From the NCBI GenBank assembly GCA_947625115.1, contig CANQND010000002.1:3692-67691 (forward strand): DNA of 64,000 bases, given 5' to 3'. A program made the position numbers and the translations under genes. The notes beneath the pieces are model-generated. The model did not search any database. It was given only the letters and a program-made list of their open reading frames with translations, and was not told the DNA's origin. Each line of letters starts with the position of its first letter. Within the stretch, counting starts at the first letter, position 1. This stretch comes from an uncultured Clostridia bacterium. GTDB lineage: Bacteria; Bacillota; Clostridia; Christensenellales; CAG-314. Positions 24,585-47,908 of this stretch are shown here, piece by piece.

Positions 24585-25742
24585 TTATCTGAAATTTTCG
24601 TACTGTTTGAGCAAATCTGCCGAAATGCTGGGCTGTATCTTTGCAAACGCCTTTTCAAACATTTCGCGAGTGAGAGGTATGGGAGAGTGAAGATCTCCCG
24701 CCTGAATTTGTTCCAACGCCAAGCGGCAGGCTTCTTCTATTATTCCGCAAATATCCGCGGCGGAATAGTAGGCGTCCTCCACTTCCACAACGCCGACGGG
24801 GCTTTCGACGGTGGTTTTGTGTACTGTCATCTGCACAACTTCGTCAACGGTTATGTCGTTTAACTCTATGCCTTGAAGTTTGCTTTCCACTATTGCGCGC
24901 TTTGCCTCGATATCGGGAGGCGACACGTGTACCAAGTGCGAAAATCTCTTGTAACGCAAGTAGGCGGGGTCTATCACGTCGGGACGGTTGGTCGCGGCGA
25001 TAATCATACGCTTTGATCCGTCCACGCCGAAGCCGTTGATACGTTGCAACAGTTCGGTCGTCACCGCCGCCTTGTAGTCCTTTGTGTCCTGCGTGCGGCG
25101 GCTGAAAATGGATTCACATTCGTCCACGAACAGTATCGCTCCGTCCGGACAAGCGTCAATTTCGTCAAACAACTGCCGTACAGCCTGCTCGGACTGACCC
25201 ACATAGGATTTGAAAATATCCGCAGGGGTGATAACGAACAGCGGCAATTTCAACGCGTTGGCTATTGCCTCGGCAAACATTGTTTTGCCCGTGCCGGGCG
25301 CGCCGTACATAAGCAGACCCAAGCCGCCCTCTATTTTGTAGTACTTGATTATGTCGGGGTTTTGAGCGATAAAGATGAAGCTCTTGACGATCTTTTTTAC
25401 GTCCTCCAAACCCTTTACGTCGTCGAAAGTGGTATCGGGAATTTTGCTCTTCACCGACGAACCCAAAACGCGCGCTCTGTCGCCCAAACGCCGTTCAAAA
25501 TCCTTGTACTTTTCCACCTCGGCCGTGTCGGTGTGACGTTCGCTCAACTTGTGCGCCAACTGCGAAGCGCGAAGATATTCCGTCGCCAAAGGCTGACGTT
25601 CTTCGCCCTGAATTTCATGCAGGTCCTTTCTGCCGTTCAACAGGGAGCGAATTTTGTCCGTCGATTCGCGAAACTGCTTTTCAAGATTTTCAATTGTGTC
25701 GGAAGGATTGTTCTTTTCCGATTTTTTTGCCATACCGGACAT
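24585..25742 (-). CDS. g10 of the large operon: classic-clade AAA+ ATPase (FtsH/Vps4/katanin-like single AAA module) with about 100-aa helical N-terminal region
   Basis: 385 aa. Walker A 'GAPGTGKT' (nt 25281-25304). Walker B 'ILFVDECESI'. Second region of homology 'IIAATNRPDVIDPAYLRYKRFSHLVHVSPPD'. Strong RBS AAGGAGGA that overlaps the end of g9. Confidence 0.85.
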   Translation of the reverse strand: MSGMAKKSEKNNPSDTIENLEKQFRESTDKIRSLLNGRKDLHEIQGEERQPLATEYLRASQLAHKLSERHTDTAEVEKYKDFERRLGDRARVLGSSVKSKIPDTTFDDVKGLEDVKKIVKSFIFIAQNPDIIKYYKIEGGLGLLMYGAPGTGKTMFAEAIANALKLPLFVITPADIFKSYVGQSEQAVRQLFDEIDACPDGAILFVDECESIFSRRTQDTKDYKAAVTTELLQRINGFGVDGSKRMIIAATNRPDVIDPAYLRYKRFSHLVHVSPPDIEAKRAIVESKLQGIELNDITVDEVVQMTVHKTTVESPVGVVEVEDAYYSAADICGIIEEACRLALEQIQAGDLHSPIPLTREMFEKAFAKIQPSISADLLKQYENFR

Positions 25743-25753
25743 CGCTTTCCTCC

Positions 25754-26500
25754 TTAGGCTATATCGCCGATGTCGCCTACGCCGCCGCCGTTGCCGTTAC
25801 CGTCGGGCTTACCGCCGCCGTTGTCGCCGCTGTTCGATTGCGGCGCGGGAGCGTTACCCGCATTTTTGGGCGAGGACGACGCGCGCATATCCGCCATCAA
25901 TTTCTTTGCATAAGAGTTTTCCTGTTCGGGAGCGACGCCCTTGTTCTTTTTGGATTGCTTTGCAAAGCCCTTTTGCGACATCGTTTTCATACGAACGCTG
26001 ACCGTTTTGAGGCTGTTGACCATTTCCAACGCGATCCTTTGACTGCTGACGAGCATTTCACACATCTGATTCATACGCGCGGCGTTGTTCCTAATGGCGC
26101 GACGTACCTGACGTTTGCGCCTCATACGCTCCCAAAAGCCGTACTTTTGCGACATAGTTGCGGCAAGCACTTCCTGTTGCATATTGAGTACGTCGTCTAC
26201 GCAATCGATAGCCTGACCGATACACTGCATTGCAAATCCAACGTCGTTCAATAAATCGATGACGGATTTCATTTGCATTGTAACGTCCAAAAACGTTATC
26301 AATATCTGCGTGCGGTAGTCCTCTTCGCCGTACTGATCCTCGAAAGAGATTGCGCGTTGGCAAAGTTGCATTATGCGACGGTCCAATTCTCTGCGCTTTT
26401 TCTTGCGCTCCGCATTGAGCATTACTTGTTTGTTTTGTTCCTCAATGTTGGATTGTTCCTGTTCCATTTGTTGAAGTTGATCGCTGTAATCTTCTGGCAT
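25754..26500 (-). CDS. g9: 248-aa predicted all-helical/coiled-coil protein with Gly/Asn-rich C-terminal tail
   Basis: ORF with a TAATG overlap to the g8 stop. Heptad-like charged sequence ('QLQQMEQEQSNIEEQNKQVMLNAERKKKRRELDRRIMQL'). Tail 'SNSGDNGGGKPDGNGNGGGVGDIGDIA'. No enzymatic motif. Confidence 0.6.
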   Translation of the reverse strand: MPEDYSDQLQQMEQEQSNIEEQNKQVMLNAERKKKRRELDRRIMQLCQRAISFEDQYGEEDYRTQILITFLDVTMQMKSVIDLLNDVGFAMQCIGQAIDCVDDVLNMQQEVLAATMSQKYGFWERMRRKRQVRRAIRNNAARMNQMCEMLVSSQRIALEMVNSLKTVSVRMKTMSQKGFAKQSKKNKGVAPEQENSYAKKLMADMRASSSPKNAGNAPAPQSNSGDNGGGKPDGNGNGGGVGDIGDIA

Positions 26501-29500
26501 TATTCGTTCCCCCTTGTGTGAATCTGTTGTAATTTTGTTTTAAGAAGCTGTTTTTCCGCTTCGTTGTTGTCAAACCAATCGTGAATGGAAATGCGGTGCA
26601 AATTCCAATTGCGTTCCGTCAAATTTTGGTAGTACAGCAAGTTGTAGTCGAGATAGTCGTACTTGCCGTCCGTGGGCAGTTCGCACCACACGCCCAATTC
26701 CGCTTGCTGTTTGTCCTCGGACAACACGGCGACGGGTATACGCACGGAGCCTTCCGTTACGCCGTAACCCACCACTACGCGGTCCTCGTCGATGCCCAAG
26801 GACTTTATATATTTTACCACGTCCGCAACAAAATGGGAACCTCTTTCCAAAGTGTTGCTCACAAATTGCTTCATTCCCTCTTGCGCGAAGCGTTGCACCA
26901 AGCGCAGATAATCCACGATAAAGGATATGCGCGTGGCTCCGTCCAATTGGTAGGGCAAAACGGAGTGGATAACCGTTACCGAACTCCTTGCGCGGGTAAC
27001 CGCCACGTTAAATATGCACTGACCGAAGTCGTCGCGGTTCAGTTCGCCGAACCTCTTTTGAACGGAACCGTTTTTGTCGCGCCCGTAGGTCAACGACAGT
27101 ATCAGGTGATCCGTTTCCTGTCCCTGAACGCTTTCTATCGTGCGGAAGAATACCGCTTTGTCCCCCACGTCTACCGCCGCTTGCGCGCGCCTGATAGCTT
27201 CGTCCAGCTTGCCGTCGCGAGATACAAGCCGTTGTATTTCTTCCAACTGAGCCTGTCCGAATGCAACCACGCCCACCGAGTAGCCGTCGCGCAATTTGCC
27301 GCTGTCCTCGTCAAAGTACTTGGCAAAGTGTTCTTTGAGCAGTTGCAACGCCTTTTCCGCTTCCGCACGGTTTACGCCGCCCTCGCAGTAGCCCTCCTCA
27401 ACGTAGACGTCGGTAAAGCCCAACCCCTCGCCAAACGGACGAGCCGCGGGGAACGTGCGCATAAACGGATAGAACCTCTTTTGCGAAAACGCGATAAGTG
27501 CCTCGGTGTTGCTACGGTAGTGACACGTAAGCTCGGCGTAGTTGAAAGTGTGCGCGTTCAACGCCAAACTCAACGCGGAGATGTTTTTGTCGAGTTTCAG
27601 TTCCTTGTCGTAGTCCTCTATCACCGCGGCTTTTTGCGCCTTGAAGTGAGTTATGGGCGGCATTTGATGTTCGTCACCCACCAAAACGCACTGTTTGGAG
27701 CGGTACAGCAACGGTACGAGATACACGGGTTCGAGCTGACTTGCTTCGTCCACGATGACCACATCAAAATCGTCGTAGGTTTCGGTGCGGAACAGCACGC
27801 TTGCCGTGGACGGCGACAGAATGAAGCAACGTTTGAGTTTGCAAATGGCGGAGTCGTAGTTTTTGAACATACCGCGCATTGTGTACTTGACGCCCTTATC
27901 TCCCGCAAGGAAAGCGAAATCGGGGTCGTCGGGATCGATGGAAGTCAGACAAGCCTGTTCGATAGCCTTTGCGTTGAGGCGAGCGATTTCCTTTTCGGCG
28001 GCGGAATATTTGCTCAATTCCACTTCCGCCTGATGTCCCATTCCGTTGTGATAGTTGCCCATTTGACCTATGCGATAAACTATCACTGCGTGCAAAAAGT
28101 TGTGTTCTACAAATTCGGCAAAGCGAGATGGTTCCACGATAACGTCGCCCTTTTCCGCCGCCTCAAACAGCTTGCGGGCAGGGATAACGGCGCAAAGCGC
28201 GTCCAACAAAGCGTAGTACTGAATTGCCGCGCCCGCGCAACCCTTGTCGGCGGATTGACGGACAAAGTAGCGCAAATCTTCAACGCTCAAACCCTCGCAA
28301 CCGACGGTGTAGTAGTTTTTGACATATTTGTTGCCGACTTCTTTGAGCAGTTCCGTCGCTTTTGTCAAAGAGTCAACGCATTTTTTGTTCAATTTCGTTA
28401 TCGCGGAAATGATTTGCAAACGAATGGAGTCCGCGATTGCGGAATAAGCGGCGTTCCCGCCGAAACGCAATGCCGCGCAAACCGTTTCAGCCACGGCGAG
28501 AAGTTCCGCCTGAGGCATAGTCAGGTTGGCTTCTTCGCAAATTTGCTTTACGGCGCAAAGCAGTTGCTTTTGAGAAAGATACAGTTCGTAAGCCGCGATC
28601 ACCTCTCCCAACGTTACGCTGTGAGCGGCAAAGGTCACGTCGGGGTCTTTGGTAAGCAACTCGTAGGTCTGTTCCGCAATGTCGATATATCTGCGCAACG
28701 AAACTTTGAGCGTTTTGCTCCTGTGCAACGCCAACGACAACGCCTCGTACTGTTCTTCCGTGAGCAGTTCGGGAACGTTGAGTATTTGCGACATATAGCG
28801 CAATGCCCGTTCCGCCTCGTTGGAACGTACGCAGTAGTTGCGGTAGTCAAGCGCGGCTTTGATAACCTTGTCCGCCGTGAGCAACTTGTCCGAACTGAAC
28901 GCGGATAGTTTTTTGACGGTGTGCGCCGTCTTGAAACCGAGTTTGTCGCCCTCGCGGTACTCCTTTATGTCGTCGTAAACTTTGAGAATGAAATTTTGCT
29001 GTTTTTCCGTCAGGGGCAAATCGAACACTTCGAGCGCGTCCAACTGACTCTTGCGAGCCTCGGTACGCTTGGCGTTGTACGCGTCAACAGTTTCCAACAG
29101 CTTTTCCACGTCAACGGCGTTGTCAAGACTGCCCGAAATGAGCTTTCTGTTGTCGTCGATGAGTTTGAGTTGCGCCAAAGTGAGTTCTTTGTCTACGACG
29201 AGGCGAACAACGCCGTCTACGCCCGCCGCGTCCCCCGTAAATTGCACCGAGGGGTTGGCATTGACGAGATTTTGCCTGTATGTATCCAACTTGCGGCTGA
29301 ACGTTTCCGTTTTGTCGCGGTCCGTTCCCAATTTGGCGATTTTGTCTATTGCGTCGGCGGCATTGGGTTTGAATACGTCCTGTCCCGCAAGCGACAAAAT
29401 GCAGTCCACTGTAAGTTGCTCCAAAGAAACACCGCACGAACGTCGAACGGAATCCAATTCGTCGAGGACGTCTTTGAGCAAGTTGCCTATCTCTTTGTAG

Positions 29501-31083
29501 GCGGGGAGCAACGTTTCGTCCACGTTGACGGAACCGTTTACGTTAAGCCAAGGGCTGTACTTTATCGGACGCTCTTTGCAGAGATTTGCAAACTGTTTTC
29601 CCGCTTCGCTTGCAAGCGATTTGACCTGTTCCAACTGCTCTGCGGTGATTTTTTCCATTTGAGCGGCGGGAGCGAAATCGATAACGGGCAAATCGGCGTT
29701 GGCAAAGTACGCGTCCAAAGCGTCGTAGTAGCATTTGCCCGCCACGGTATCTTTGCCGTACATAACGTTGTAGTAGTTGGCTAGTTTCATAACGGCGTCC
29801 GTCTTGTTGCGCAACGCCGCGTCCAACTTGACGGGTATGGAGCGGTCGGGCGTGTACTCGCGCTTGTAGCGCAAAATGTTGCGAAATTCCATTTTGAGAG
29901 AGGACGGATTGACCGTTGAAGCCTGTTTTTCCGTTTCGTAAGCGAGCATAAGAACAAACTTGCGAAGATTTTCGGGCAGTTTGTTGCTGACTTCCGCCAA
30001 GGCGGAGATCTTTTTGGAAGCGAACATAACTCTCTTGCCCTGCGACATCAATATCGCTATCATATTGGCGATAGTCAAAGTTTTGCCCGTTCCCGGGGGA
30101 CCTTTTATTATGAGCGATTCGCCGCTTGCAACGCGCCCTATCAATTTTTGCTGAATGCTGTCGTGCGGCAGAATAAACTGCAAGCCCACCGATTTTTTCT
30201 GCTCGGGAGTTGCCGCGTGTTCGGGCTGTTGCAAGCCGAACACTTTGGCTACAAGTTCGCTACGATCGATCTTGTCCTTGTTGCGGCGAACGTCGTAGTA
30301 CATACATATATCGCTGTGGTTGTAGGTTGAAATAGCCACCACGTCGCGCGACAACGAAAATGCCGCCTGTTGCGAAACGGTGTTCACGCAATCGTTAAGA
30401 TAACGCTCCACTCTGTCGAAATATTCCCTGCCGTCCGACAAGACGTTCAGATCCAACGCGTCGTCGAAATCCGCTCCGTTGCCGTTTGGGTGAGGAAACC
30501 CCGCCGCAACGGTAGGATACAGTTCGCGCATAAGCGTGATAAGGCAAGGGTTGAAGTAGGCGTCGTCGTCTACAAATTCTATCTCTACGGGGCTGGTTTC
30601 CGACCCCCTGTTGAGCCTTATCGGGTAAATAATCATAGGAGAATTGACAGTTACGAGTTCTCCCTGTTGAGTTATTTGCCAACGCAACGCGCCGACGCTC
30701 AAAAACAGCGGATTGTTGCCTTTAAGGTTGAGTTCGCTGTAATAGTTGTCGATAAATTTGTGCAGATCCTCCACACTTACCGTGCCGTTTGTTTCTTTCC
30801 ACTGCCATTTGACGGAAATACCCGTATCGGGGATCTTGACAAGAGAACTTTTTGCAAGAACCGTTTGATTGCCCGGTTTTCCGTGCCGTTCGCGCGCGGT
30901 GTTGATCATCAATTCGCCCGACGGGGCGTCGGGGAAAGAAAGCAGATAGGTGCGGTTGGACACGGAACTGCGCGCAGTGCCGTCGAAGTCGCCCAAATCC
31001 AACATTCTGTTGGAAGTACCCTCTTCGAGGTGAAGCAGATCTCGGATAAAATCGTCCAAAAAATCTTTGGTGTTATTTGGCAT
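26500..31083 (-). CDS. g8: 1527-aa SF1 helicase of the Upf1/DNA2-like (AAA_11/AAA_12) class, with DUF4011-like N-terminus and C-terminal restriction-endonuclease-like/DUF3320-like region
   Basis: Walker A 'IIKGPPGTGKT' (residues 328-335, nt 30079-30102). Walker B 'VVIVDEASQLEP' (about residue 1112). 'VLVGDEHQMPP', 'YRSNTEALIAF', 'SVQGQETDHLILSL', 'NVAVTRARSSVTVI'. N-terminal 'NPLFLSVGALRW...SPMIIYPIRL' is DUF4011-like. C-terminal 'NWNLHRISIHDWFDNNEAE' is typical of the terminal module in this architecture. Confidence 0.85.
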   Translation of the reverse strand: MPNNTKDFLDDFIRDLLHLEEGTSNRMLDLGDFDGTARSSVSNRTYLLSFPDAPSGELMINTARERHGKPGNQTVLAKSSLVKIPDTGISVKWQWKETNGTVSVEDLHKFIDNYYSELNLKGNNPLFLSVGALRWQITQQGELVTVNSPMIIYPIRLNRGSETSPVEIEFVDDDAYFNPCLITLMRELYPTVAAGFPHPNGNGADFDDALDLNVLSDGREYFDRVERYLNDCVNTVSQQAAFSLSRDVVAISTYNHSDICMYYDVRRNKDKIDRSELVAKVFGLQQPEHAATPEQKKSVGLQFILPHDSIQQKLIGRVASGESLIIKGPPGTGKTLTIANMIAILMSQGKRVMFASKKISALAEVSNKLPENLRKFVLMLAYETEKQASTVNPSSLKMEFRNILRYKREYTPDRSIPVKLDAALRNKTDAVMKLANYYNVMYGKDTVAGKCYYDALDAYFANADLPVIDFAPAAQMEKITAEQLEQVKSLASEAGKQFANLCKERPIKYSPWLNVNGSVNVDETLLPAYKEIGNLLKDVLDELDSVRRSCGVSLEQLTVDCILSLAGQDVFKPNAADAIDKIAKLGTDRDKTETFSRKLDTYRQNLVNANPSVQFTGDAAGVDGVVRLVVDKELTLAQLKLIDDNRKLISGSLDNAVDVEKLLETVDAYNAKRTEARKSQLDALEVFDLPLTEKQQNFILKVYDDIKEYREGDKLGFKTAHTVKKLSAFSSDKLLTADKVIKAALDYRNYCVRSNEAERALRYMSQILNVPELLTEEQYEALSLALHRSKTLKVSLRRYIDIAEQTYELLTKDPDVTFAAHSVTLGEVIAAYELYLSQKQLLCAVKQICEEANLTMPQAELLAVAETVCAALRFGGNAAYSAIADSIRLQIISAITKLNKKCVDSLTKATELLKEVGNKYVKNYYTVGCEGLSVEDLRYFVRQSADKGCAGAAIQYYALLDALCAVIPARKLFEAAEKGDVIVEPSRFAEFVEHNFLHAVIVYRIGQMGNYHNGMGHQAEVELSKYSAAEKEIARLNAKAIEQACLTSIDPDDPDFAFLAGDKGVKYTMRGMFKNYDSAICKLKRCFILSPSTASVLFRTETYDDFDVVIVDEASQLEPVYLVPLLYRSKQCVLVGDEHQMPPITHFKAQKAAVIEDYDKELKLDKNISALSLALNAHTFNYAELTCHYRSNTEALIAFSQKRFYPFMRTFPAARPFGEGLGFTDVYVEEGYCEGGVNRAEAEKALQLLKEHFAKYFDEDSGKLRDGYSVGVVAFGQAQLEEIQRLVSRDGKLDEAIRRAQAAVDVGDKAVFFRTIESVQGQETDHLILSLTYGRDKNGSVQKRFGELNRDDFGQCIFNVAVTRARSSVTVIHSVLPYQLDGATRISFIVDYLRLVQRFAQEGMKQFVSNTLERGSHFVADVVKYIKSLGIDEDRVVVGYGVTEGSVRIPVAVLSEDKQQAELGVWCELPTDGKYDYLDYNLLYYQNLTERNWNLHRISIHDWFDNNEAEKQLLKTKLQQIHTRGNE

Positions 31084-31097
31084 AAGTATATTTTCCT

Positions 31098-33023: not shown

Positions 33024-33024
33024 A

Positions 33025-34536: not shown

Positions 34537-34548
34537 TGCCGCACCTCT

Positions 34549-35640
34549 TTACCCTTTGTTGACCGAAGCGAGGACGTGAGCTACCAAATCCTTTGTGGCG
34601 TGAGGTATGCTCTCCCACCAATGGTTGCAAAACGCCAATACGTCGTCGGGATAGAATATGTAGTCGTTTTTGGTTTGACTTGCCTTGCGTTGAAGTTGCG
34701 CCAAGGGCAACATTCCCTCGCTTTCGAGATACTTTTTGTAACCGACTAACCTGCGGTTGCGACTGCTTGCAAAACACAAATAGTAGTCGTCGTCGGGTTC
34801 GATTGTGTTGTTTTGCAAAAATTCCTTGTCGGTAATGCGGCAGGGCATTTCGTTTTGGTGAATGAGATACAGCCTCAACTCGGAACGGTTGGTAAAGTAC
34901 TCTATCGCCGAAGTTTCCTTTTTGCCCAAACGGTAACGGCTGTTTGCCCAATCGGAAAAGGTTTCGCCGTTTACGTACATCAAGCCGAAAAGCGGAGTTC
35001 TGCCGTCGTGCAACGACATATTCAACAAAGAAGTTATGCGCGCACTGTCGTCCGACTCGGGAACGCTCGTTTCGCGACGGGCGGGTATTTCGTCCAACAA
35101 ACCCAAAGAGAACATCTGACCCGCCTTTTCGTCGTAGTCGAAAGAGCGGTTTTGACCGTTACGCAATTGGTCGGGAGGGTTTTGCAACAAGTCGAGATGA
35201 CGGCGGGCGGCGATTTTGCGCAGGTACACCGATTTAGACACCGTTTTGCCGCGAAATTCGTTGCGCCAAATTCTTTCATAGTAGTTGCAAGCCACCTTGA
35301 AAGCCGTTATGTTGTCCACATTGGCGTGATTTGTTTCGTAGTAGTAGGCAAGCCGCAAAAGCGCGTTGGGATTGCCGCCGAGAGCCGCCTGTTTGCACAG
35401 TTCCACCGCTTTGGTTATCTTTTCGTGGGCAAGTTTGGCGTTTTGGTGACTGTTGTCCACGCGCGACAGGGTTTGCAACGCTTCGTGAAAGAGAATTTCC
35501 GACAGCGTGAATTTTTCGGAGTTTTCCGTTGTGATCTCGAACTCCTTGATAGTTATCGGTTTTTTGCATTTGACGCACACAAATTCGCCGCTGTACAATT
35601 CGTACACATCTCTTTCCTTACCGCATTTTTCACAACGCAT
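34549..35640 (-). CDS. g5: zinc-ribbon plus Sel1/TPR-like repeat protein (363 aa)
   Basis: ORF 34549..35697, trimmed to ATG 35640 (RBS GGGAGGAA). N-terminal 'CEKCGK-x15-CVKCKK' is a zinc ribbon. 'AALGGNPNALLRLAYYYETN' is Sel1-like. The start overlaps the g4 3' end by 11 nt. Confidence 0.65.
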   Translation of the reverse strand: MRCEKCGKERDVYELYSGEFVCVKCKKPITIKEFEITTENSEKFTLSEILFHEALQTLSRVDNSHQNAKLAHEKITKAVELCKQAALGGNPNALLRLAYYYETNHANVDNITAFKVACNYYERIWRNEFRGKTVSKSVYLRKIAARRHLDLLQNPPDQLRNGQNRSFDYDEKAGQMFSLGLLDEIPARRETSVPESDDSARITSLLNMSLHDGRTPLFGLMYVNGETFSDWANSRYRLGKKETSAIEYFTNRSELRLYLIHQNEMPCRITDKEFLQNNTIEPDDDYYLCFASSRNRRLVGYKKYLESEGMLPLAQLQRKASQTKNDYIFYPDDVLAFCNHWWESIPHATKDLVAHVLASVNKG

Positions 35641-42498: not shown

Positions 42499-45400
42499 TA
42501 CTTCACCTCTCCGAGTTCGTCCCTATCCAACACGGACTTTATGTCCTCCACCTTTTGCGCTTCCGCGCCGAGGTTTTTGCAAAAACTTTCGTCGTCGTTG
42601 TTTTCCAATTGGAAATTCCACAAACCGCGAATGTAGGCGACAAAGGTCTTGGGTAGCAAGGGGCGCAATTTGCCTTGACGGCTCTCTCCGCAAACGGGGC
42701 AAGCCGCCTCCCATTTGTCGTCAAATTCGATGACGGTGGGTCGCGGACTGCACTCGGCGTAACGGCACGTGCGGCAACTGCCCACGTCGTCGTATATGAT
42801 ACGGCACACTTCGTGTTCGCCCTTGCAACCGTTGCTTTTGCGGAAACACTGATCGCAAGCCGCGTAAAGTTCCGCCTCGGTTTTGCCGCGATATCTGTCG
42901 CTAAGCAAAATACAACCCTTTTCTTTCAGATAGCCGCAATGCGACATTGCGCAAATCTTCAAACAGGGCAGATTTCTGTCGTTGAGTTTTCCGCTGTTGC
43001 TCATTCTGCCGTGTTCGTGTTCCTTGTTGCTTGCCGAACAACGGTAGCCCTCTTCCGTAACGGAGCGTTTGAGCATATAACCGCAGTGGTCGCACTTGAA
43101 CTCGCGCGTGTTGATTTCGTTCATCACGCAACTCTCTTCGTTTTTGTACTTGCCGCTGTGCGAACAGATCAAGTCGTTGTCGCGCAAGACTTCGTAGTAC
43201 TCCTTGCGGGAAATTTGCTTGGTTTTGCCGCAGGTTTTGCACTCCACCGTAACGACGTCGCCGTTTTGGCGTTTGCTTTCGTTCGTTTCGTGCATAAGCG
43301 CGGGGTTTTCCTTGAAATGTACGCTACCGCCGTGATCGCAAATAAGCGTGTTTTTGCGTTTGAACTCCTCGTAGTCCTGTTGCGACATTAACTTTACGTT
43401 ACCGCATTTGTTGCAACGCACCGTTACCATTTGGTCGTTGTTGCTACCCGCAAGTATCGTTGCGTCGCCGCTGTTGGACGTCATCAAGCCTATCGCCGCA
43501 AAATACGCCAACGCAAAACCCTCCAACTTGTTCATATCCGCAAACGAGAAAATTTCAACGTTTTTGTCCTGTCCCAAACGGAACACGCGTCCGATACGTT
43601 GGTCCATAGCAAGCGGGTCGGGCGTAACCTGATAGTTTACGATCAAGTTGCACTTTTGCAAGTTTGCGCCCTCAGTCAAGGCAGCGTCTTTTACCACCAA
43701 GATGGCGTCGGAACGGTCGTTAAAGGCGTTTATCACGTTTTCCTGACTGTCCGCGTCGCTCAAAACAAGACGTTTGGAATATTTTTTGTCCTTTTTCAAC
43801 GCGGCGACCACCTCGTCGATAACGCTGTCCTTTTCGTCGAGTTCGTAATCGAAAAAGATAATCACGCGTTCCTTGGCGTGCTTGTCGAGTATCTGTTGCA
43901 AATAGCGATATTTGTAACCGAGCTTGTCGTCTGTTTCTTCGACGGGTATTATCGCCGTTTGATCCCACGCGTCCAAGCCGACGGCTTTGAACCGCTCGTG
44001 ATAGTACTCCACGTAACCGTTCTTTGTGTAGTGACGGTACGCGGAAGCTCTGTAAATTTTGTCAAACTTGCCCAAAGCCTCGTAGAGCATTTCGTTGTAG
44101 GCGTTTTTGTCGCTTTCCCATTCGCCCTTGACGGAGGATATGTACTTGGCAACGGACATCGTTTCGCCGTTGTATTTGACGGCGGGCAGAAATCCGCTGT
44201 CGATATTTGCGCGCGAATAGTCCGCCTCCGCGCCGTTATTTAATTGCAACAGGCAAATCTTGGAGTACACTTCTGTCGGCACGGGGAAGAGCAGGACGTT
44301 TTTGACGAGTTTGTTTGCGTCGATAAAGTTGCCGCCCTCGCTGTGCGCCGACTGCCTTATCATTATCGACCGCAACAACGCGTGGTACTCGCGCGCAACA
44401 ACGTCGATGATTTTGTTTTTTATTTCCTTGTTCTGTTTGAGAAAATTTTCCACGTGATTGGAACGGGCGTACTCCGTCAGATTGTCGTACTCTTCCTGAC
44501 TTTGTATTCCCTGCCCGCGCAACCATTCAAAAAACGCCTCTCTGTACGGGTGCAACATTATCGTGTCCAACTTCACTTTGCGAATGAAGTCGGTAACATT
44601 TGTGGCTCCGCGGCACATTGTTTTGAGATAGTATTGTTTTTCTTGAAGATACTTTGCCGAACGTTGCTTGTCCTCCTGCTCGGCAAAATCGTCGGGATTG
44701 CCGCCCTGACAGCGTACAAAGTACCACAAACGGAACATATTTTCAAGGTTGCCCGAGTGCGGCGTGGCGGAAAGCAACAGACAGTACGTTTGCGAACCCG
44801 TCGCTTTCTTGATAGACATCAATTGAGAGAGGAGCTTCATCGCCTTGGCGTACTCGCCCTCTTCTTTGCACAGGTGGTGAGCCTCGTCCACGACGATAAC
44901 GTCAAAGACAATGTTGTCGGGAATTTTCCACTGCGCAAAAACTTTCACGTCCACAATAACCGATTTGGCGGGGTGAATGATTTTGTCCGCGCTGTTACGC
45001 GTATAAATTTTGTTCAACACCGAGTAGAAATCGGTATTTGCGGGGTCGCCGTCGCGAACTTGTACGAGCTGACCTTTGCCCAGACCGAATTTTGTTTCGA
45101 TAACGTCTACCCAATCGTTGAACACCTGACTCGGCGTTACTATCAACATATTGCTTATGCGGTCGCGTTCGGCAAGTTCGCTTAGCACCACTCCCGCTTC
45201 GTAGGTTTTTCCGCTACCCACTACGTCGGCAAGCAAGCCGAAACCGCGCAGATCGCGCAACATCTGTTCGGCGGCGCGTTGTTGCTTGGAGCGAATAACC
45301 GCGCCTCCGCCGTGCTTTTTAGGGTCACGCTGAATACCGTAAACGCCGCTCGGACCTTTTTCGTAGTACCGCGCGTCTATGTTGAGTTGGCTGAAATCGT

Positions 45401-45554
45401 CAAACCTGTCCAAAGCCAAAATTTTTTCTTCCGCGCGGCTTATCCTGCTGGTGTAGGTCGTGCGGCGGTCGGTGAGATTTTGCTTTTGGTCCTCGGGATT
45501 CCAAGCCTTTTGCGAATTACCGCCTTTGGTAAACCTGATTTCTATATTTGCCAT
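42498..45554 (-). CDS. g2: SNF2-family (SF2) helicase/translocase with about 250-aa Cys-rich C-terminal extension (1018 aa)
   Basis: Motif I 'LADVVGSGKTYEAG'. Motif II 'VIVVDEAHHL' (nt 44877-44888). Motif III 'LLLSATPHSGN'. Motifs V/VI 'LTEGANLQ...DQRIGRVFRLGQ'. The C-terminal residues about 710-960 (nt 42675-43427) hold about 24 Cys. They include a duplicated module: 'VTVRCNKCGNVKLMSQQDYEEFKRKNTLICDHGG' and 'VTVECKTCGKTKQISRKEYYEVLRDNDLICSHSG'. Confidence 0.88.
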   Translation of the reverse strand: MANIEIRFTKGGNSQKAWNPEDQKQNLTDRRTTYTSRISRAEEKILALDRFDDFSQLNIDARYYEKGPSGVYGIQRDPKKHGGGAVIRSKQQRAAEQMLRDLRGFGLLADVVGSGKTYEAGVVLSELAERDRISNMLIVTPSQVFNDWVDVIETKFGLGKGQLVQVRDGDPANTDFYSVLNKIYTRNSADKIIHPAKSVIVDVKVFAQWKIPDNIVFDVIVVDEAHHLCKEEGEYAKAMKLLSQLMSIKKATGSQTYCLLLSATPHSGNLENMFRLWYFVRCQGGNPDDFAEQEDKQRSAKYLQEKQYYLKTMCRGATNVTDFIRKVKLDTIMLHPYREAFFEWLRGQGIQSQEEYDNLTEYARSNHVENFLKQNKEIKNKIIDVVAREYHALLRSIMIRQSAHSEGGNFIDANKLVKNVLLFPVPTEVYSKICLLQLNNGAEADYSRANIDSGFLPAVKYNGETMSVAKYISSVKGEWESDKNAYNEMLYEALGKFDKIYRASAYRHYTKNGYVEYYHERFKAVGLDAWDQTAIIPVEETDDKLGYKYRYLQQILDKHAKERVIIFFDYELDEKDSVIDEVVAALKKDKKYSKRLVLSDADSQENVINAFNDRSDAILVVKDAALTEGANLQKCNLIVNYQVTPDPLAMDQRIGRVFRLGQDKNVEIFSFADMNKLEGFALAYFAAIGLMTSNSGDATILAGSNNDQMVTVRCNKCGNVKLMSQQDYEEFKRKNTLICDHGGSVHFKENPALMHETNESKRQNGDVVTVECKTCGKTKQISRKEYYEVLRDNDLICSHSGKYKNEESCVMNEINTREFKCDHCGYMLKRSVTEEGYRCSASNKEHEHGRMSNSGKLNDRNLPCLKICAMSHCGYLKEKGCILLSDRYRGKTEAELYAACDQCFRKSNGCKGEHEVCRIIYDDVGSCRTCRYAECSPRPTVIEFDDKWEAACPVCGESRQGKLRPLLPKTFVAYIRGLWNFQLENNDDESFCKNLGAEAQKVEDIKSVLDRDELGEVK

Positions 45555-45567
45555 AAATTTCTCCCAA

Positions 45568-47604
45568 TTAGTCTGCGCCCTCTATCTTTATGGTAAAGTC
45601 TTGCGCCCTAAGCTCGATGTCGTTTGCCCAAACGTAGGTTTCTCCCGTAAGATCGGAGGATTTTTCGGGCAGGTATCTTATTTTTACGCGCACACCGCTG
45701 TTGGCTTCTTCCGATTTCCCCACAAAGGGCTTGGCTATGCCGTTTGCGTCGAATTGTATCCCCGCCTCGAAGTTAAACCTGCGCTCACTGCCCGTCAACC
45801 TGTCGAAAACGGACAGCAATTGCACCCGCGTATCGTTGTGGTAAAACATAACCGCGGCTTCCTTTTCGGTGTTGCGCCGACGGAAGTCTATCTTCTTTTC
45901 CAACATACGCTCGTAGGACTTGGTCTTGCCCGAATTGTCGAACAAAAACAGTCCCGTACTCTCGTAACGAAGCCCCTCGTCTTTGTACATCTGCCGTTCC
46001 AGCTCTCTTTTTGTCAGGGACATTGAAAAAATCAACAACGAACCCGACAAGCACGGCGGCACGTTATACTTGTAGTGAACACATTCGCCGTTTTCGGAGA
46101 TTTCGTAACCCTTGTCCACCAACAAAGAAAATATGCAACGGCGATTGTTGCCCTCTCCCAAGTAAATATCCGTACCGTATGTCAGAGATGTAAGCGTTGC
46201 AACCTTTATGTTGTTCAGCGCGGCAAGCGCGCAACCCACTGCGGGAGCGTAAACCGCGTCCTCGTGCGCAAAAATGGCAAAGCTGTCCTCGCTGTCGTAT
46301 TGGCGGTCCGTTCCCTCAAAGGTTCCGACGGCAACTTTGCGTTTTCTGCCGCCCATCTTCGCCTTGATGGCTTCCACCAGACGATAGGTTTCCACCACTC
46401 CGCCCGTTATGAACACGTGTTCGACGTTGCGGTTAATGTTTTTGTCCAACTCGTTTACAATGTAGCGGTAAAGTTTTTCGGCGAAAGAATCTTCCAAAAT
46501 TTTACCGTTGACGTCCACGCCCACGCAATTTGCAAATTCGTCGTGAGTGAGTTTCAACCTTATGTTCAGATCGCGAATAACGTTTATCGGAACGCCGTCT
46601 TTGAAAAGGCTGTCCTCTTTGCCGTACATTCCGAAAAAGATTTTCGCCATTTTTATTTCTTTCAGAAACAGGTATTGCTTGGTGAGCAAGCCTCTTTCGT
46701 AAACGTGTCCGTCGCTGCCCGCCGACGGCGAACCCATCGTTTCGCGATCTTCCATACGCCGCTCCAAAAAATTGGCTACGGCGTTGTCGATGTCGTTTCC
46801 GCCGAGATCTATGGGGCTGCTGTGTCCCTCCAAACCGTCGATGGACACGCCCGAACGCTGAATGTTGGTTTTGGCGACAAACGTTTTGTCCTCGCCCACG
46901 TTGAACACAAGCGCGCTTTGCCCCTCGGAGATTATGCCGCGTTGCTTGGCGTAAATGCTCAACGCTTTGGTCATACTGAGTACGGTGTGGATCTTCCAAC
47001 GTTTATCGAAGCCGTTCAACACGATACGTTTGAGTTCGGAAATGAATTCTTGCCCGATATTGGGAGGATAAACCAACGAAAGTTGCAATGTGTAGTCGCT
47101 GTTGAGCTGATCGGCGATACATTTTATGCGCCGCTCCACCAATTTGCCGATATACTTAAAGTACTGTTCGCAAACGGACTTGGGGGTTGTTTTGCTTACT
47201 TCAAAGGTTTTGTTCTGCTCTATCAGCTTGGAAAAATCCGATTCCGTTTTCGTTTCCAGCGGAAAAATGAATTTGGGAAAATGATTGCCCGAATTGTAGT
47301 ACTTGACGTTGGAGTTGTAGACGCTTTCCGTCAGACTGCTTTTGCGTTGCAACAGCGTTAAAAGCTGTTTTATCTTTACGACCGTCAAATAACTGTTGGA
47401 CTGCTGCTCCGTAACTTCGTCGGCAAAATACCAAGCGTTTTTGTCTTGATTGAAATAGGCAACGGCAGGCAACGCCATCAAGGACGTACCGTCGGGAACG
47501 ATCTTGCCCCACCTTTCCTCGCCGTAAAGTTTGTAGGCGAAAACGACTTTCAGCGTGTCGCTGCCCAGATCCAATGCGACGTGGATATTTGTTGTGAAAT
47601 TCAT
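45568..47604 (-). CDS. g1: Hsp70/actin-fold (ASKHA) ATPase-like protein, divergent (678 aa)
   Basis: ORF-track start 47643 is a TTG. I prefer ATG 47604 (MNFTTNIHVALDLGSDTLKV) with a GGAG 9 nt upstream. The phosphate-1-like motif is 'ALDLGSDT'. The phosphate-2-like motif is 'ALVFNVGEDKTFV'. The adenosine-like motif is 'VFITGGVVETYRLVEAIK'. The nucleotide-binding-like domain is about 450 aa and is followed by a beta-rich tail of about 230 aa. No EEVD tail. Confidence 0.65.
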   Translation of the reverse strand: MNFTTNIHVALDLGSDTLKVVFAYKLYGEERWGKIVPDGTSLMALPAVAYFNQDKNAWYFADEVTEQQSNSYLTVVKIKQLLTLLQRKSSLTESVYNSNVKYYNSGNHFPKFIFPLETKTESDFSKLIEQNKTFEVSKTTPKSVCEQYFKYIGKLVERRIKCIADQLNSDYTLQLSLVYPPNIGQEFISELKRIVLNGFDKRWKIHTVLSMTKALSIYAKQRGIISEGQSALVFNVGEDKTFVAKTNIQRSGVSIDGLEGHSSPIDLGGNDIDNAVANFLERRMEDRETMGSPSAGSDGHVYERGLLTKQYLFLKEIKMAKIFFGMYGKEDSLFKDGVPINVIRDLNIRLKLTHDEFANCVGVDVNGKILEDSFAEKLYRYIVNELDKNINRNVEHVFITGGVVETYRLVEAIKAKMGGRKRKVAVGTFEGTDRQYDSEDSFAIFAHEDAVYAPAVGCALAALNNIKVATLTSLTYGTDIYLGEGNNRRCIFSLLVDKGYEISENGECVHYKYNVPPCLSGSLLIFSMSLTKRELERQMYKDEGLRYESTGLFLFDNSGKTKSYERMLEKKIDFRRRNTEKEAAVMFYHNDTRVQLLSVFDRLTGSERRFNFEAGIQFDANGIAKPFVGKSEEANSGVRVKIRYLPEKSSDLTGETYVWANDIELRAQDFTIKIEGAD

Positions 47605-47672
47605 TTTCTTCCGCTCCGTGTTTACCGCTGTGTCAATTATCAACGATAAATGTCAAAATCTGCTAACTTAAT

Positions 47673-47700
47673 ATTATATCATAAATAAAACCTGTGTCAA
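47673..47700 (-). promoter_or_regulatory. near-consensus sigma-A promoter (extended -10) of the 10-gene operon
   Basis: Minus strand: TTGACA (47695-47700), 16-nt spacer ending in TGa, TATAAT (47673-47678). About 70 nt upstream of the g1 ATG. Confidence 0.7.
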
Positions 47701-47868: not shown

Positions 47869-47908
47869 CCTTTATTTGCAGAGGAGCAAATATCGGTTAA
47901 ATGTGTTG

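What the first reader, a model, noticed from the sequence alone, without database searches (positions are those of the whole stretch)
24585..47700. A 10-gene, ~23 kb tightly coupled operon combining four NTPase families: candidate undescribed system
One strand and one near-consensus promoter (47673-47700) are followed by ten ORFs with 0-14 nt gaps or overlaps. No internal terminator was seen.

Gene order:
- g1: Hsp70/actin-fold ATPase.
- g2: SNF2 helicase with a Cys-rich tail.
- g3: Cys-rich protein.
- g4: 1747-aa polytopic membrane protein with at least 12 Ig-like repeats.
- g5: zinc-ribbon plus Sel1 repeats.
- g6: coiled-coil protein with a Q/N tail.
- g7: HExxH protein.
- g8: 1527-aa DUF4011/Upf1-like SF1 helicase.
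- g9: coiled-coil protein with a G/N tail.
- g10: classic AAA+ ATPase.

SNF2 and Upf1-like helicases recur in anti-phage systems, for example Zorya ZorD, DISARM DrmD, Mokosh and CoCoNuT-type systems. The hallmark partners of those systems are absent here:
- no methyltransferase;
- no PglZ or Lon-like protein;
- no MotAB-like ZorAB;
- no DUF1998;
- no McrBC GTPase;
- no PLD or clearly intact nuclease.

I know of no named system with this gene set. The cluster sits between housekeeping and sugar-utilisation genes, with no integrase, transposase or tRNA. A conflict/defence role is an inference only. Alternatives are an envelope- or surface-linked nucleic-acid transaction machine, or several adjacent modules (g1-g3, g4, g5-g7, g8-g10).
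Basis: partly seen in the sequence, partly recalled or inferred. Interest (0 to 1): 0.92.

Follow-up and report, generated by a model that had tools for sequence, protein, structure and literature searches.

The report
Conserved ten-gene multi-ATPase operon, undescribed
Ten tightly packed genes form one operon that is kept in the same order in dozens of uncultured gut Clostridia and matches no named system; its job is unknown, most plausibly membrane-anchored surveillance of foreign nucleic acid.

Summary
Ten minus-strand ORFs (24585-47604) lie behind a 12/12 consensus promoter, with junctions of -11 to +14 nt and no convincing internal terminator.

The gene order g2-g10 recurs in 30 species-level Clostridia MAG loci at 19-80% protein identity, and g1-g6 recurs in further contigs. 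A much deeper 11-gene "clade B" keeps the whole order.

Structure prediction and profile searches give these assignments:
- g1: full Hsp70 architecture.
- g2: SNF2 ATPase.
- g4: 5 TM helices plus 12 MBG/Ig-like repeats.
- g5: zinc ribbon plus Sel1 repeats.
- g7: FtsH-like protein, with an AAA-like domain lacking Walker A and an invariant HExxH zincin.
- g8: Upf1-like SF1 helicase with a degenerate Vsr/MTES_1575 domain.
- g10: p97-D2/VAT-like AAA+ ATPase.
- g3, g6, g9: orphans. g6 and g9 carry conserved acidic C-terminal tails.

No PADLOC, NCBIfam or Pfam model reaches a family cut-off for any named defence system, and literature searches found no description of this gene set.

The flanks are housekeeping genes and are shared within subclades. 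No phage or plasmid copies were found. The defence reading therefore remains an inference (about 0.4). A lineage-specific cellular machine is a serious rival.

The parts
47673..47700 (-). sigma-70-type promoter, TTGACA-16-TG-TATAAT
   Evidence: 12/12 match with a TG extension; best site in 43-51 kb. It is followed by GGAG and the ATG at 47604.
45568..47604 (-). g1: Hsp70-architecture protein (nucleotide-binding domain plus beta-sandwich substrate-binding domain), 678 aa
   Evidence: AF2 model has pLDDT 85. Foldseek matches Hsc70/DnaK/Hsp110 over 670-700 columns at E 3e-19. Sequence support is weak: DnaK E 0.02 and PF00012 in 8/31 members. The DLGSD phosphate-1 motif is invariant.
42498..45554 (-). 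g2: SNF2-family ATPase with a Cys-rich (multi-CxxC) C-terminal tail, 1018 aa
   Evidence: Pfam SNF2-rel_dom plus Helicase_C. The closest solved relative is RapA. DrmD scores 133 bits against a cut-off of 610. The tail is conserved into clade B.
40873..42498 (-). g3: orphan protein with an N-terminal domain and about three zinc ribbons, 541 aa
   Evidence: No Pfam, PDB or PADLOC match. Invariant C317/C320/C388/C401/C404/C444/C447/C466.
35630..40873 (-). g4: membrane protein with 5 N-terminal TM helices and 12 extracellular MBG/Ig-like repeats, 1747 aa
   Evidence: TM scan and repeat count. MBG_2 hit. Conserved polar residues: Asp in TM1, Asp in TM2, an SNF-RFKY loop, W..H in TM4, GYFGQG after TM5. 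Ortholog length varies from 900 to 1933 aa.
34549..35640 (-). g5: N-terminal zinc ribbon, Sel1 repeats and an unknown C-terminal domain, 363 aa
   Evidence: Sel1 hit in 11/27 orthologs, best E 1.2e-4. PDB Sel1/TPR proteins at E 0.002-0.008. CxxC...CxxC is visible in the sequence.
33025..34536 (-). g6: conserved N-terminal domain, coiled coil, Q/N-rich linker and acidic C-terminus (LxDDD), 503 aa
   Evidence: Only generic coiled-coil matches. It is the fastest-evolving gene, 19-28% identity. The N-terminal domain is a separate gene in clade B. The C-terminal DDD is conserved.
31098..33023 (-). g7: FtsH-like soluble protein with a helical N-domain, an AAA-like domain without Walker A, and an HExxH zincin domain, 641 aa
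   Evidence: AF2 model has pLDDT 90. Foldseek PDB matches are spastin/PAN/Vps4/katanin/AFG3L2/FtsH, prob 1.0, E 3e-3. The top BFVD hit is an FtsH/Yme1 metallopeptidase over 576 columns, E 1e-3. H562, E563, H566, E617 and E624 are invariant. The P-loop position reads STPLTDDARL.
26500..31083 (-). g8: DUF4011/Upf1-like SF1 helicase with a roughly 700-aa poorly conserved insert and a degenerate Vsr/MTES_1575-like C-terminal domain, 1527 aa
   Evidence: Pfam hits. PDB relatives are Sen1/IGHMBP2/DNA2/Upf1. Walker A and DEASQ are invariant. The first catalytic Asp of the Vsr-like motif is replaced (IP[IV]AVL) in all 26 sequences. PDC-S37 383 bits, ProA 399 bits (cut-off 1500), Hhe 246 bits (cut-off 2000).
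25754..26500 (-). g9: orphan helical protein with a Gly-rich disordered linker and a conserved C-terminal D-I-x-D-I-L tail, 248 aa
   Evidence: Alignment of 27 orthologs. No consistent Pfam or PDB match, and no Snf7/PspA hit.
24585..25742 (-). g10: single-ring classical AAA+ ATPase (p97-D2/VAT-like) with a helical N-domain, 385 aa
   Evidence: PF00004 at E 6e-32 plus Vps4_C. VAT/p97 at E 4e-63. It is the most conserved gene: 58-80% identity in clade A and 39% in clade B. Walker A/B are invariant.

Best explanation
The ten genes are one co-inherited system. I read it as a membrane-anchored, multi-ATPase surveillance machine of the conflict/defence type.

Shown:
- One promoter and translationally coupled junctions.
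- Gene order kept across two deep clades of uncultured Clostridia.
- Four NTPases whose checked nucleotide-binding motifs are conserved: g1 Hsp70-like (phosphate-1 DLGSD), g2 SNF2, g8 Upf1-like, g10 p97-like (Walker A/B).
- One invariant HExxH zincin fused to a dead AAA-like domain (g7, FtsH-like).
- One envelope-spanning protein with a fast-varying extracellular repeat array (g4).
- Zinc-ribbon, Sel1 and coiled-coil proteins without catalytic motifs (g3, g5, g6, g9).

Inferred mechanism:
1. g4 anchors the complex and reports an event at the cell surface, such as phage or DNA entry or envelope damage. It does so through its conserved polar TM bundle and short cytoplasmic loops.
2. g5 (Sel1), g6 and g3 scaffold the cytoplasmic parts on g4.
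3. g10 and g7 together act as a split FtsH-like unfoldase-protease. They process the tail-bearing coiled-coil proteins g6 and g9, whose conserved acidic C-termini would serve as docking or degron signals. This switches the system on or resets it.
4. g1 acts as an ATP-gated clamp or chaperone.
5. The two translocases, g2 on duplex DNA and g8 on ssDNA or RNA, are the output. They strip or remodel the incoming nucleic acid or its nucleoprotein complexes rather than cutting it, because the only nuclease-like domain is degenerate.
For: Unity of the system:
- Promoter and junctions.
- Same order in 30 genome loci and in further contigs.
- Clade B keeps every gene at 24-39% identity, except that its g9-position protein shows no sequence similarity to g9.
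- Pairwise-identity matrices of g5, g7, g8, g9 and g10 correlate, Spearman 0.58-0.86.

Conflict flavour:
- The best library matches of g8 are stand-alone anti-phage helicases: PDC-S37 at E 8e-115, ProA at 4e-119, Hhe at 4e-73.
- g2 matches DrmD/BrxH/DpdE best.
- g10 matches IetA, the ATPase of an ATPase+protease defence pair, at E 3e-32.
- g4 repeat number varies from 900 to 1933 aa, and g4 and g6 diverge fastest.
- Thematically similar extended type III-A CoCoNuT operons combine a Upf1-like helicase, an Hsp70-like protein, a CDC48-like ATPase, coiled coils and an inactivated REase (PMC11090510).

g7/g10 pairing idea:
- g7 models as FtsH-like but lacks a P-loop.
- g10 is an active single-ring AAA+ ATPase of the same classical clade.
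Against: - No defence-island context. Flanking genes in about 25 loci are housekeeping (Sua5, YitT, HisG, OTCase, prfA/prmC, spoVT-spoVB-mazG). Only isolated R-M or SspE-like hits occur in single loci.
- Flanks are shared among 7 species-level genomes of one subclade, which looks like vertical descent.
- GC content equals that of the surroundings.
- Distribution is confined to Clostridia MAGs. No phage or plasmid copy was found.
- All defence-HMM matches are partial and far below the curated cut-offs.
- No intact nuclease or other obvious toxic effector is present.
- The g7:g10 interaction, the tail recognition and the sensor role of g4 are untested inferences.
- hhalign finds no sequence-level similarity between g7 and the AAA domain of g10.
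Confidence: 0.4

Rival explanations
1. A lineage-specific housekeeping machine rather than an immune one. In this reading it is an ERAD/FtsH-like 'extract and degrade' or nucleoprotein-clearing apparatus. p97-like g10, FtsH-like g7, the Sel1 adaptor g5 and Hsp70-like g1 would handle the giant surface protein g4 or other envelope clients. The SNF2 and Upf1/Sen1-like motors would clear stalled protein-nucleic-acid complexes.
For: - Embedding in housekeeping neighbourhoods, apparently vertical descent and uniform GC content.
- Very high conservation of g10, 58-80%.
- g1 keeps a full Hsp70 substrate-binding architecture.
- The closest solved relatives are p97/VAT, Sen1 and RapA. All of these remodel or remove protein complexes (their functions are from my own knowledge).
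- No intact toxic effector is present.
Against: - Restricted to a few hundred uncultured lineages, about 161 clusters at 50% identity.
- One species lost g8 cleanly, so at least that part is dispensable.
- Fast turnover of the g4 repeats and of g6 is more typical of conflict genes.
- The best matches of g8 are anti-phage proteins.
- No known housekeeping pathway uses this gene set.
Confidence: 0.3
2. Several independent modules (g1-g3, g4, g5-g7, g8, g9-g10) that merely share a transcript, each with its own function.
For: - L024 lacks g8 but keeps everything else, with an 18-nt g7-g9 junction.
- Clade B splits g6 into two genes.
- g8-like proteins work alone as Hhe/PDC-S37-type defence genes (their function is from my own knowledge).
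Against: - The full order is retained in about 30 species and in clade B, at down to 24-39% identity.
- Rates are correlated across the genes.
- No sub-module was seen alone: every g1 and g7 relative whose context was examined sits in the full operon.
Confidence: 0.12
3. A divergent member of an already named defence system: type III CoCoNuT, DISARM, Zorya, BREX, Mokosh, Dpd or IetAS.
For: Sub-threshold HMM hits to DrmD, BrxHI/HII, DpdE, ZorD, MkoA/C and IetA. There is also a thematic overlap with the extended type III-A CoCoNuT operons.
Against: Every defining partner is missing from all ten proteins: McrB/McrC, DUF1998/DrmA/DrmB, PLD, a methyltransferase, PglZ/PglX, MotAB-like ZorAB, DpdA/B/C, and the IetS subtilase. 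Scores are 3-75 times below the curated cut-offs.
Confidence: 0.05
4. A function tied to a conjugative or other mobile element, such as DNA-transfer accessory machinery plus a surface adhesin.
For: In one clade B contig the operon is followed by ClpP and a T4SS coupling protein, TraG/VirD4. g4 looks like an adhesin.
Against: - Other copies, including clade B, are flanked by prfA/prmC, enolase and biosynthetic genes.
- No integrase, relaxase or T4SS genes occur in the window.
- No hits in 72,556 plasmids or in the viral contigs.
Confidence: 0.05

Closest known systems
Extended type III-A CoCoNuT operons (Bell, Koonin et al. 2024, PMC11090510)
   Same: They combine a Upf1-like SF1 helicase, an Hsp70-like NBD/SBD protein, coiled-coil proteins, zinc ribbons, an inactivated PD-(D/E)xK domain and, in some operons, a CDC48/SpoVK-like AAA+ ATPase.
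   Different: CoCoNuTs are defined by an McrB-type GTPase with an NxD motif and an McrC/DUF2357 partner, usually with HEPN. None of these is present here. CoCoNuTs have no SNF2 ATPase, no Ig-repeat membrane protein and no FtsH-like zincin.
Zorya type I (ZorAB + ZorC + ZorD)
   Same: The logic is similar: a membrane-embedded component with conserved acidic TM residues, long coiled coils, and an SNF2-family motor as cytoplasmic output (PMC11946911 abstract; details from my own knowledge).
   Different: There is no MotA/MotB-like stator. g2 scores 19.7 bits against the ZorD model, whose cut-off is 1500. g4 is a 5-TM protein with a huge extracellular array rather than a long cytoplasmic tail. The extra Hsp70, AAA+, zincin and SF1 components have no Zorya counterpart.
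Hhe / ProA / PDC-S37 stand-alone DUF4011 helicase-nuclease anti-phage proteins
   Same: g8 shares DUF4011, the AAA_11/AAA_12 core and the C-terminal MTES_1575-type domain: PDC-S37 383 bits, ProA 399 bits, Hhe 246 bits.
   Different: The scores are 4-8 times below the equivalog cut-offs and cover only the C-terminal half. The nuclease motif is degenerate. Here the protein is one of ten co-inherited genes, not a single-gene system.
FtsH / m-AAA proteases, and the pseudo-protease FtsHi assemblies
   Same: g7 models as an AAA-like domain followed by an HExxH peptidase domain. It is partnered in the operon with an active classical-clade AAA+ ATPase, g10. This recalls mixed active/inactive FtsH-type rings.
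   Different: g7 has no TM anchor, no Walker A and no sequence-level match to M41 or AAA. Here the ATPase side is the dead one, whereas in FtsHi it is the protease side (my own knowledge). A hetero-oligomer is hypothetical.
IetAS (AAA+ ATPase IetA + serine protease IetS)
   Same: An ATPase-plus-protease pair in a defence context. g10 matches IetA at E 3e-32.
   Different: The score is 102 bits against a cut-off of 510. g10 is closer to CDC48/VAT. The protease here is a zincin, not a subtilase. Eight further genes are present.
DISARM / BREX / Dpd SNF2-type helicases (DrmD, BrxHI/HII, DpdE)
   Same: g2 is an SNF2-family ATPase whose best library hits are these proteins.
   Different: g2 scores 133 bits against 610 (DrmD) and 106 against 500 (DpdE). 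There is no methyltransferase, PglZ, DrmA/B/C or DpdA-C.

Membership tests
CoCoNuT (type II/III) | McrB-like GTPase with an NxD motif plus a McrC/DUF2357 partner (PMC11090510) | tested here: not met
   No McrB, AAA_5-GTPase, DUF2357 or HEPN hit in any of the ten proteins.
CoCoNuT (type II/III) | Upf1-like helicase CnuH and Hsp70-like CnuD | tested here: inconclusive
   g8 is Upf1-like and g1 is Hsp70-like. No CnuH or CnuD models or sequences were available to test orthology.
DISARM | DrmA (helicase with DUF1998), DrmB and DrmC (PLD), or a methyltransferase, alongside DrmD (my own knowledge; NCBIfam models) | tested here: not met
   g2 scores 133 bits against the DrmD model, cut-off 610. No DUF1998, PLD or MTase domain was found.
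Zorya | ZorA/ZorB MotAB-like stator plus ZorC/ZorD | tested here: not met
   ZorD model scores 19.7 bits against a cut-off of 1500. g4 has no MotA/ExbB or OmpA-like hit.
BREX | PglZ phosphatase, PglX methyltransferase, BrxC ATPase and BrxL/Lon | tested here: not met
   Only partial BrxHI/HII helicase-core hits to g2, about 110 bits. None of the core BREX genes is present.
Hhe / ProA / PDC-S37 | Full-length match to the single-gene DUF4011 helicase-nuclease model | tested here: not met
   ProA 399 bits against 1500; Hhe 246 bits against 2000. Matches cover only g8 residues about 890-1524.
Hhe / ProA / PDC-S37 | Intact C-terminal PD-(D/E)xK (MTES_1575/Vsr-like) nuclease | tested here: not met
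   PF18741 scores 27.7 bits against a cut-off of 38.2. The position of the first catalytic Asp reads IP[IV]A in all 26 sequences. The motif assignment is from my own knowledge of DUF559/Vsr.
IetAS | IetA AAA+ ATPase with the IetS subtilisin-like protease | tested here: not met
   IetA model scores 102 bits against a cut-off of 510. No subtilase is present; the protease-like gene is a zincin.
Mokosh | MkoA/MkoC RNA helicase with a PLD nuclease | tested here: not met
   MkoA/C hits to g8 are 88-95 bits and cover the helicase core only. There is no PLD.
Dpd (7-deazaguanine DNA modification) | DpdA (TGT-like), DpdB and DpdC together with DpdE and other helicases | tested here: not met
   DpdE scores 106 bits against a cut-off of 500. 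No TGT, ParB or DUF328 domains are present.
Hsp70 family (g1) | Actin-fold nucleotide-binding domain followed by a beta-sandwich substrate-binding domain | tested here: met
   Foldseek E 3e-19 over 670-700 columns to Hsc70, DnaK, BiP and Hsp110.
Hsp70 family (g1) | Sequence membership (Pfam PF00012 at the gathering score) | tested here: not met
   0 hits for the window protein. 8/31 relatives hit with a best E of 2.9e-4. DnaK in the PDB scores E 0.02.
FtsH / M41 AAA protease (g7) | AAA+ module followed by an HExxH peptidase domain | tested here: inconclusive
   The fold-level top hits are FtsH/AFG3L2/Yme1-type and classical AAA proteins, E 1e-3 to 3e-3, prob 1.0. No sequence-level match exists to Pfam, PDB or g10.
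FtsH / M41 AAA protease (g7) | Functional Walker A/B motifs and an N-terminal membrane anchor | tested here: not met
   The P-loop position reads STPLTDDARL. No TM segment is present.
Cdc48/p97/VAT (g10) | Tandem D1-D2 AAA rings with an N-domain | tested here: not met
   g10 has a single AAA module. It aligns best to the D2 domain of p97/VAT (E 4e-63). The CDC48 subfamily model scores 193 bits against a cut-off of 803.
ESCRT-III / Vps4 (g9 or g6 with g10) | Snf7/PspA-type helical hairpin protein with a C-terminal MIM, and a Vps4 with an MIT domain | tested here: not met
   No Snf7 or PspA hit in any of 27 g9 orthologs or in the PDB. g10 is closer to p97/VAT than to Vps4. Only the Vps4_C helix matches. 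The folds of g9 and of the g10 N-domain could not be modelled.

The most novel reading that the evidence does not exclude
A new class of envelope-triggered immunity in Gram-positive gut anaerobes. An extracellular Ig-repeat 'antenna' (g4) is wired through Sel1 and coiled-coil adaptors to a split FtsH/p97-like unfoldase-protease switch (g7+g10) and an Hsp70-like clamp (g1). Together these license two nuclease-free nucleic-acid motors (SNF2 g2 and Upf1-like g8) to evict invading DNA or RNA. The logic is Zorya-like but is built from entirely different, partly eukaryote-like (p97 / Sel1 / Hsp70 / Upf1) parts.
Probability: 0.22. Interest if true: 0.9.

Novelty: categorically new. Interest (0 to 1): 0.74.

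Why it matters
If functional as one machine, this is a previously undescribed ten-protein system with five orphan protein families. It joins chaperone-type (Hsp70, p97/FtsH-like) and helicase-type (SNF2, Upf1-like) motors to a surface-exposed membrane protein. No characterised bacterial system uses that combination.

It is common in uncultured human and animal gut Clostridia of the Christensenellales type, whose biology and phage interactions are almost unknown.

If it is immune, it adds a nuclease-free, envelope-coupled mechanism. If it is housekeeping, it is a bacterial analogue of p97/Sel1/Hsp70 extraction machinery coupled to nucleic-acid remodelling. Either way it gives concrete, mutable targets (four Walker sites, one HExxH, two C-terminal tails) for experiments.

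Tried and rejected
1. ESCRT-III/Vps4 idea for g9/g6 plus g10. It was prompted by the Vps4_C hit and the tail motifs. It is rejected at sequence level: no Snf7/PspA hits, and g10 is closer to p97-D2/VAT.
2. g7 and g10 as detectable paralogues. hhalign probability is 0.5%. The AAA-like call for g7 rests on predicted structure only.
3. Horizontal exchange of g8. This was suspected from best-HSP identities in L026 and L037. Full-length identity matrices show no outliers (residuals at most 0.07).
4. The single-protein genome scan with g7 found nothing. The alignment-based scan was needed.
5. Re-searching the 5.8-billion-protein set with the g7 alignment gave no new members. The exhaustive HMM search did.
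g3, the C-terminal domain of g5, the N-terminal domain of g6, g9 and the g10 N-domain therefore remain unmodelled.
8. Literature searches for ProA, PDC-S37 and the Hsp70+SNF2+DUF4011+AAA+ combination found no description of this gene set. The Hsp70-containing systems of Kaur et al. 2020 are GTPase/tubulin-centred and differ from this one.
9. Phage and plasmid origin: no hits.
10. Weak hints that the g5 C-terminus is a BrxC-like wHTH (E 0.1-0.4) are not significant and were not used.

Full report
**Observation.**

The ORF table shows ten long minus-strand ORFs filling 24585-47643 with no competing coding potential. Two starts needed refinement. g1 begins at the ATG at 47604, 8 nt after GGAG, giving the 678-aa protein that is also the database representative. 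g5 begins at the ATG at 35640 (MRCEKCGK), which overlaps g4 by 11 nt. The junctions are then +13, -1, -1, -11, +12, +1, +14, -1 and +11 nt.

The promoter at 47700-47673 is a perfect TTGACA-16-TATAAT with a TG extension. The upstream minus-strand gene ends at 47909 with its own hairpin, so the cluster has its own start. Inside the cluster, terminator-like sites are no more frequent than in shuffled sequence (34 found versus 32.8 expected), and none is strong on the minus strand. GC content (0.47-0.52) matches the flanks. The window has no tRNA and no Rfam hit. No integrase or transposase appears among the Pfam hits listed for the flanks.

The flanks encode:
- on one side, MetRS, TatD, KsgA, QueH, TilS, SSB, UDG and TldD/PmbA;
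- on the other side, an ABC sugar transporter, glucoamylases and DUF5696.

**What the proteins are.**

- **g2** is an SNF2-family ATPase (Pfam). RapA is its nearest solved relative. It has a long multi-CxxC tail.
- **g8** has DUF4011, an AAA_11/AAA_12 (Upf1-like SF1) core and a sub-threshold MTES_1575 domain. Its solved relatives are Sen1, IGHMBP2, DNA2 and Upf1. Walker A and the DEASQ box are invariant in 26 sequences. The Vsr-like C-terminal motif has lost its first acidic residue everywhere (IP[IV]AVL), so the nuclease is probably dead.
- **g10** is a single classical AAA+ module. Its best matches are VAT and the D2 ring of p97 (E 4e-63).
- **g1** has no Pfam hit. An AlphaFold2 model built on 31 relatives (pLDDT 85) superposes on full-length Hsc70, DnaK, BiP and Hsp110 at E 3e-19. 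Weak sequence evidence agrees.
- **g7** has an invariant HExxH followed by invariant Glu residues. Its model (pLDDT 90) has three parts: a helical N-domain, an alpha/beta domain and a zincin domain.
  - The alpha/beta domain matches spastin, PAN, katanin, Vps4, AFG3L2 and FtsH (prob 1.0, E about 3e-3).
  - In the viral structure library the top hit is an FtsH/Yme1 metallopeptidase aligned over 576 columns (E 1e-3).
  - The P-loop position reads STPLTDDARL, so the AAA-like domain cannot bind ATP in the canonical way.
  - hhalign sees no sequence similarity to g10. This assignment is therefore fold-level only.
- **g4** has five N-terminal TM helices and twelve 80-100-aa repeats with the motif FTYNGxxQxP (MBG type). 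The TM bundle carries conserved Asp, Asp and His residues, an SNF-RFKY loop and a GYFGQG exit motif.
- **g5** has a zinc ribbon plus Sel1 repeats (11/27 orthologs).
- **g3**, **g6** and **g9** have no relatives in Pfam, PADLOC, NCBIfam or the PDB. g3 has about three invariant zinc ribbons.
- g9 and g6 share an architecture: a helical core, a low-complexity linker and a conserved acidic C-terminal motif. The motif is D-I-x-D-I-L in g9 and LxDDD in g6.

**Is the gene set conserved?**

Yes, strongly.

- g1 has 62 and g7 has 22 cluster-level relatives in the word-indexed search of the 5.8-billion-protein set. Those that carry a source name come from Clostridia MAGs.
- Contexts of distant members (31-38% identity) show the same neighbours in the same order.
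- A pattern scan of one genome per GTDB species with the g7 alignment returned 30 loci. They are labelled Christensenella, Borkfalkiaceae, Coproplasma, Limadaptatus or simply Clostridia.
- tblastn with g1-g10 finds g2 through g10 in order in every locus long enough. Identities to the window:

| gene | identity |
|---|---|
| g10 | 58-80% |
| g8 | 36-52% |
| g7 | 27-50% |
| g4 | 22-38% |
| g6 | 19-28% |

- The only structural variant is L024. It lacks g8 cleanly, with an 18-nt g7-g9 junction.
- Pairwise identity matrices for g5, g7, g8, g9 and g10 correlate (Spearman 0.58-0.86) with no outliers. The genes have evolved as a unit.
- An exhaustive HMM search found 161 clusters at 50% identity for g7 among 1.84 billion representatives.
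- The weakest full-length hits belong to a second, deep "clade B". Its operon runs: Hsp70-like (31% identity), SNF2 (32%), g3-like, MBG membrane protein, g5-like, a 274-aa gene equal to the g6 N-domain, a 509-aa coiled coil, g7-like, SF1 helicase, a 216-aa g9-position protein, and AAA+ (39%).
- The named members of clade B are again Clostridia MAGs.

**Context.**

- Downstream flanks are shared among seven species-level genomes of one subclade and among three of another. They differ between subclades.
- Ninety-two flanking proteins from about 25 loci are overwhelmingly housekeeping: Sua5, YitT, GGDEF, NadA, HisG, OTCase, HisRS and Dus.
- Only isolated defence-type hits occur, each in a single locus: one type II MTase with IceA, and one SspE/Orf5-like protein.
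- Other copies sit next to prfA-prmC, spoVT-spoVB-mazG or enolase.
- One clade B copy is followed by ClpP and a T4SS coupling protein, but this is not general.
- No relatives occur in IMG/VR contigs or in 72,556 plasmids.

The cluster is therefore a stable chromosomal operon, not an island cargo gene set.

**Comparison with known systems.**

PADLOC and NCBIfam give only partial, sub-threshold matches:

| gene | model | score (bits) | cut-off (bits) |
|---|---|---|---|
| g2 | DrmD | 133 | 610 |
| g2 | DpdE | 106 | 500 |
| g2 | ZorD | 20 | 1500 |
| g8 | ProA | 399 | 1500 |
| g8 | Hhe | 246 | 2000 |
| g8 | PDC-S37 | 383 | (C-terminal half only) |
| g10 | IetA | 102 | 510 |
| g10 | CDC48 | 193 | 803 |

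None of the defining partners of DISARM, BREX, Zorya, Dpd, Mokosh, IetAS or CoCoNuT is present.

The nearest thematic analogue is the extended type III-A CoCoNuT operon. It unites a Upf1-like helicase, an Hsp70-like NBD/SBD protein, coiled coils, an inactivated REase and sometimes a CDC48-like ATPase (PMC11090510). CoCoNuTs are defined by McrB/McrC, which are absent here. The Hsp70-containing conflict systems of Kaur et al. 2020 are GTPase/tubulin-centred. Seven literature searches found no description of this gene set.

**Mechanism.**

Shown:
- one transcription-unit architecture;
- four NTPases whose checked nucleotide-binding motifs are conserved;
- one intact zincin on a dead AAA-like scaffold;
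- one envelope-spanning protein with a variable extracellular array;
- four non-catalytic zinc-ribbon, Sel1 or coiled-coil proteins, two of which carry conserved C-terminal tails;
- no intact nuclease.

Inferred:
- g4 is the anchor and sensor.
- g5, g6 and g3 scaffold the cytoplasmic parts on it.
- g10 and g7 form a split FtsH-like unfoldase-protease that acts on the tailed proteins g6 and g9 as a switch or reset.
- g1 is an ATP-gated clamp.
- g2 (duplex DNA) and g8 (ssDNA or RNA) are the outputs. They evict or remodel nucleic acid rather than cut it.

I rate the single-system claim at about 0.9 and the defence reading at about 0.4.

The main rival (about 0.3) is a lineage-specific cellular machine: p97/Sel1/Hsp70-style extraction plus helicase-driven clearing of nucleoprotein complexes. 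It is favoured by the apparently vertical inheritance and the housekeeping neighbourhoods. It is disfavoured by the natural loss of g8, the fast-evolving g4 and g6, and the anti-phage affinities of g8.

**Verdict.**

This is a real, deeply conserved operon that no library or paper searched describes, and it fits no named system. Its function is open. The defence role is unproven, several context signals argue against a classical defence island, and five of the ten proteins remain structurally uncharacterised here.

Noticed in passing
L024:10004-13797: A natural nine-gene variant. One species-level genome has lost g8 (the SF1 helicase) cleanly, leaving g7 and g9 18 nt apart. It keeps all the other genes and the same flanks as its relatives L004 and L013.
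   Followed up: partly
L038:18439-21857: In one clade B contig the operon is followed on the same strand by a 266-aa ORF, a ClpP protease, a 538-aa ORF and a TraG/VirD4-type T4SS coupling protein. Other clade B copies (L041, L043) lack this arrangement.
   Followed up: partly
window 23739-24215 (-): A 158-aa ORF with no Pfam hit lies directly downstream of g10. No terminator lies between them. Two promoter-like sites occur at 24572-24544 and 24272-24244, and a strong 14-bp-stem terminator follows at 23653-23619. The ORF is not conserved next to the operon in other loci, so it is probably not part of the system, though it may be read through.
   Followed up: partly
window 47909-50458 (-): An ORF of about 822-849 aa with no Pfam family lies immediately upstream of the operon promoter. 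It ends in a GC-rich hairpin at about 47868-47835. The overlapping plus-strand ORF 47702-48721 also has no hits and is probably spurious.
   Followed up: no
window 35630-40873, g4 residues 1-170: The five TM helices of g4 carry conserved polar and charged residues: Asp in TM1, Asp in TM2, W..H in TM4, and the motifs SNF-RFKY and GYFGQG. These are conserved even in clade B. The pattern resembles ion-coupled or signalling TM bundles rather than a passive anchor.
   Followed up: partly
window 20974-23600 (+): A tandem TldD/PmbA metallopeptidase pair sits next to the operon. The 488-aa minus-strand ORF 20893-22359 that overlaps it has no hits and is a shadow ORF.
   Followed up: no
window 50477-61115 (-): A sugar-utilisation block: a MalK-like ABC ATPase, two putative glucoamylases (PF10091), ABC permeases and a solute-binding protein, and a DUF5696 protein (E 3e-123).
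   Followed up: no
flank ORFs of the related loci (alignment A7; locus not identified): Among the 92 flank proteins scanned, one is a type II methyltransferase (PADLOC E 3e-110) and one is an IceA-family protein (Pfam E 2e-72), suggesting an R-M system beside the operon. Another flank protein matches SspE/Orf5/HEC-06 models. These are the only defence-type neighbours seen in about 25 loci.
   Followed up: no
window 26500-31083, g8 residues about 400-1000: The helicase core of g8 is split by a roughly 700-aa insert between Walker A (about residue 330) and motif II (about residue 1112). The insert is poorly conserved. I expect it to be a helical stalk, but its secondary structure was not predicted here. 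It may be comparable to the stalk/coiled-coil inserts described for CoCoNuT CnuH helicases.
   Followed up: no
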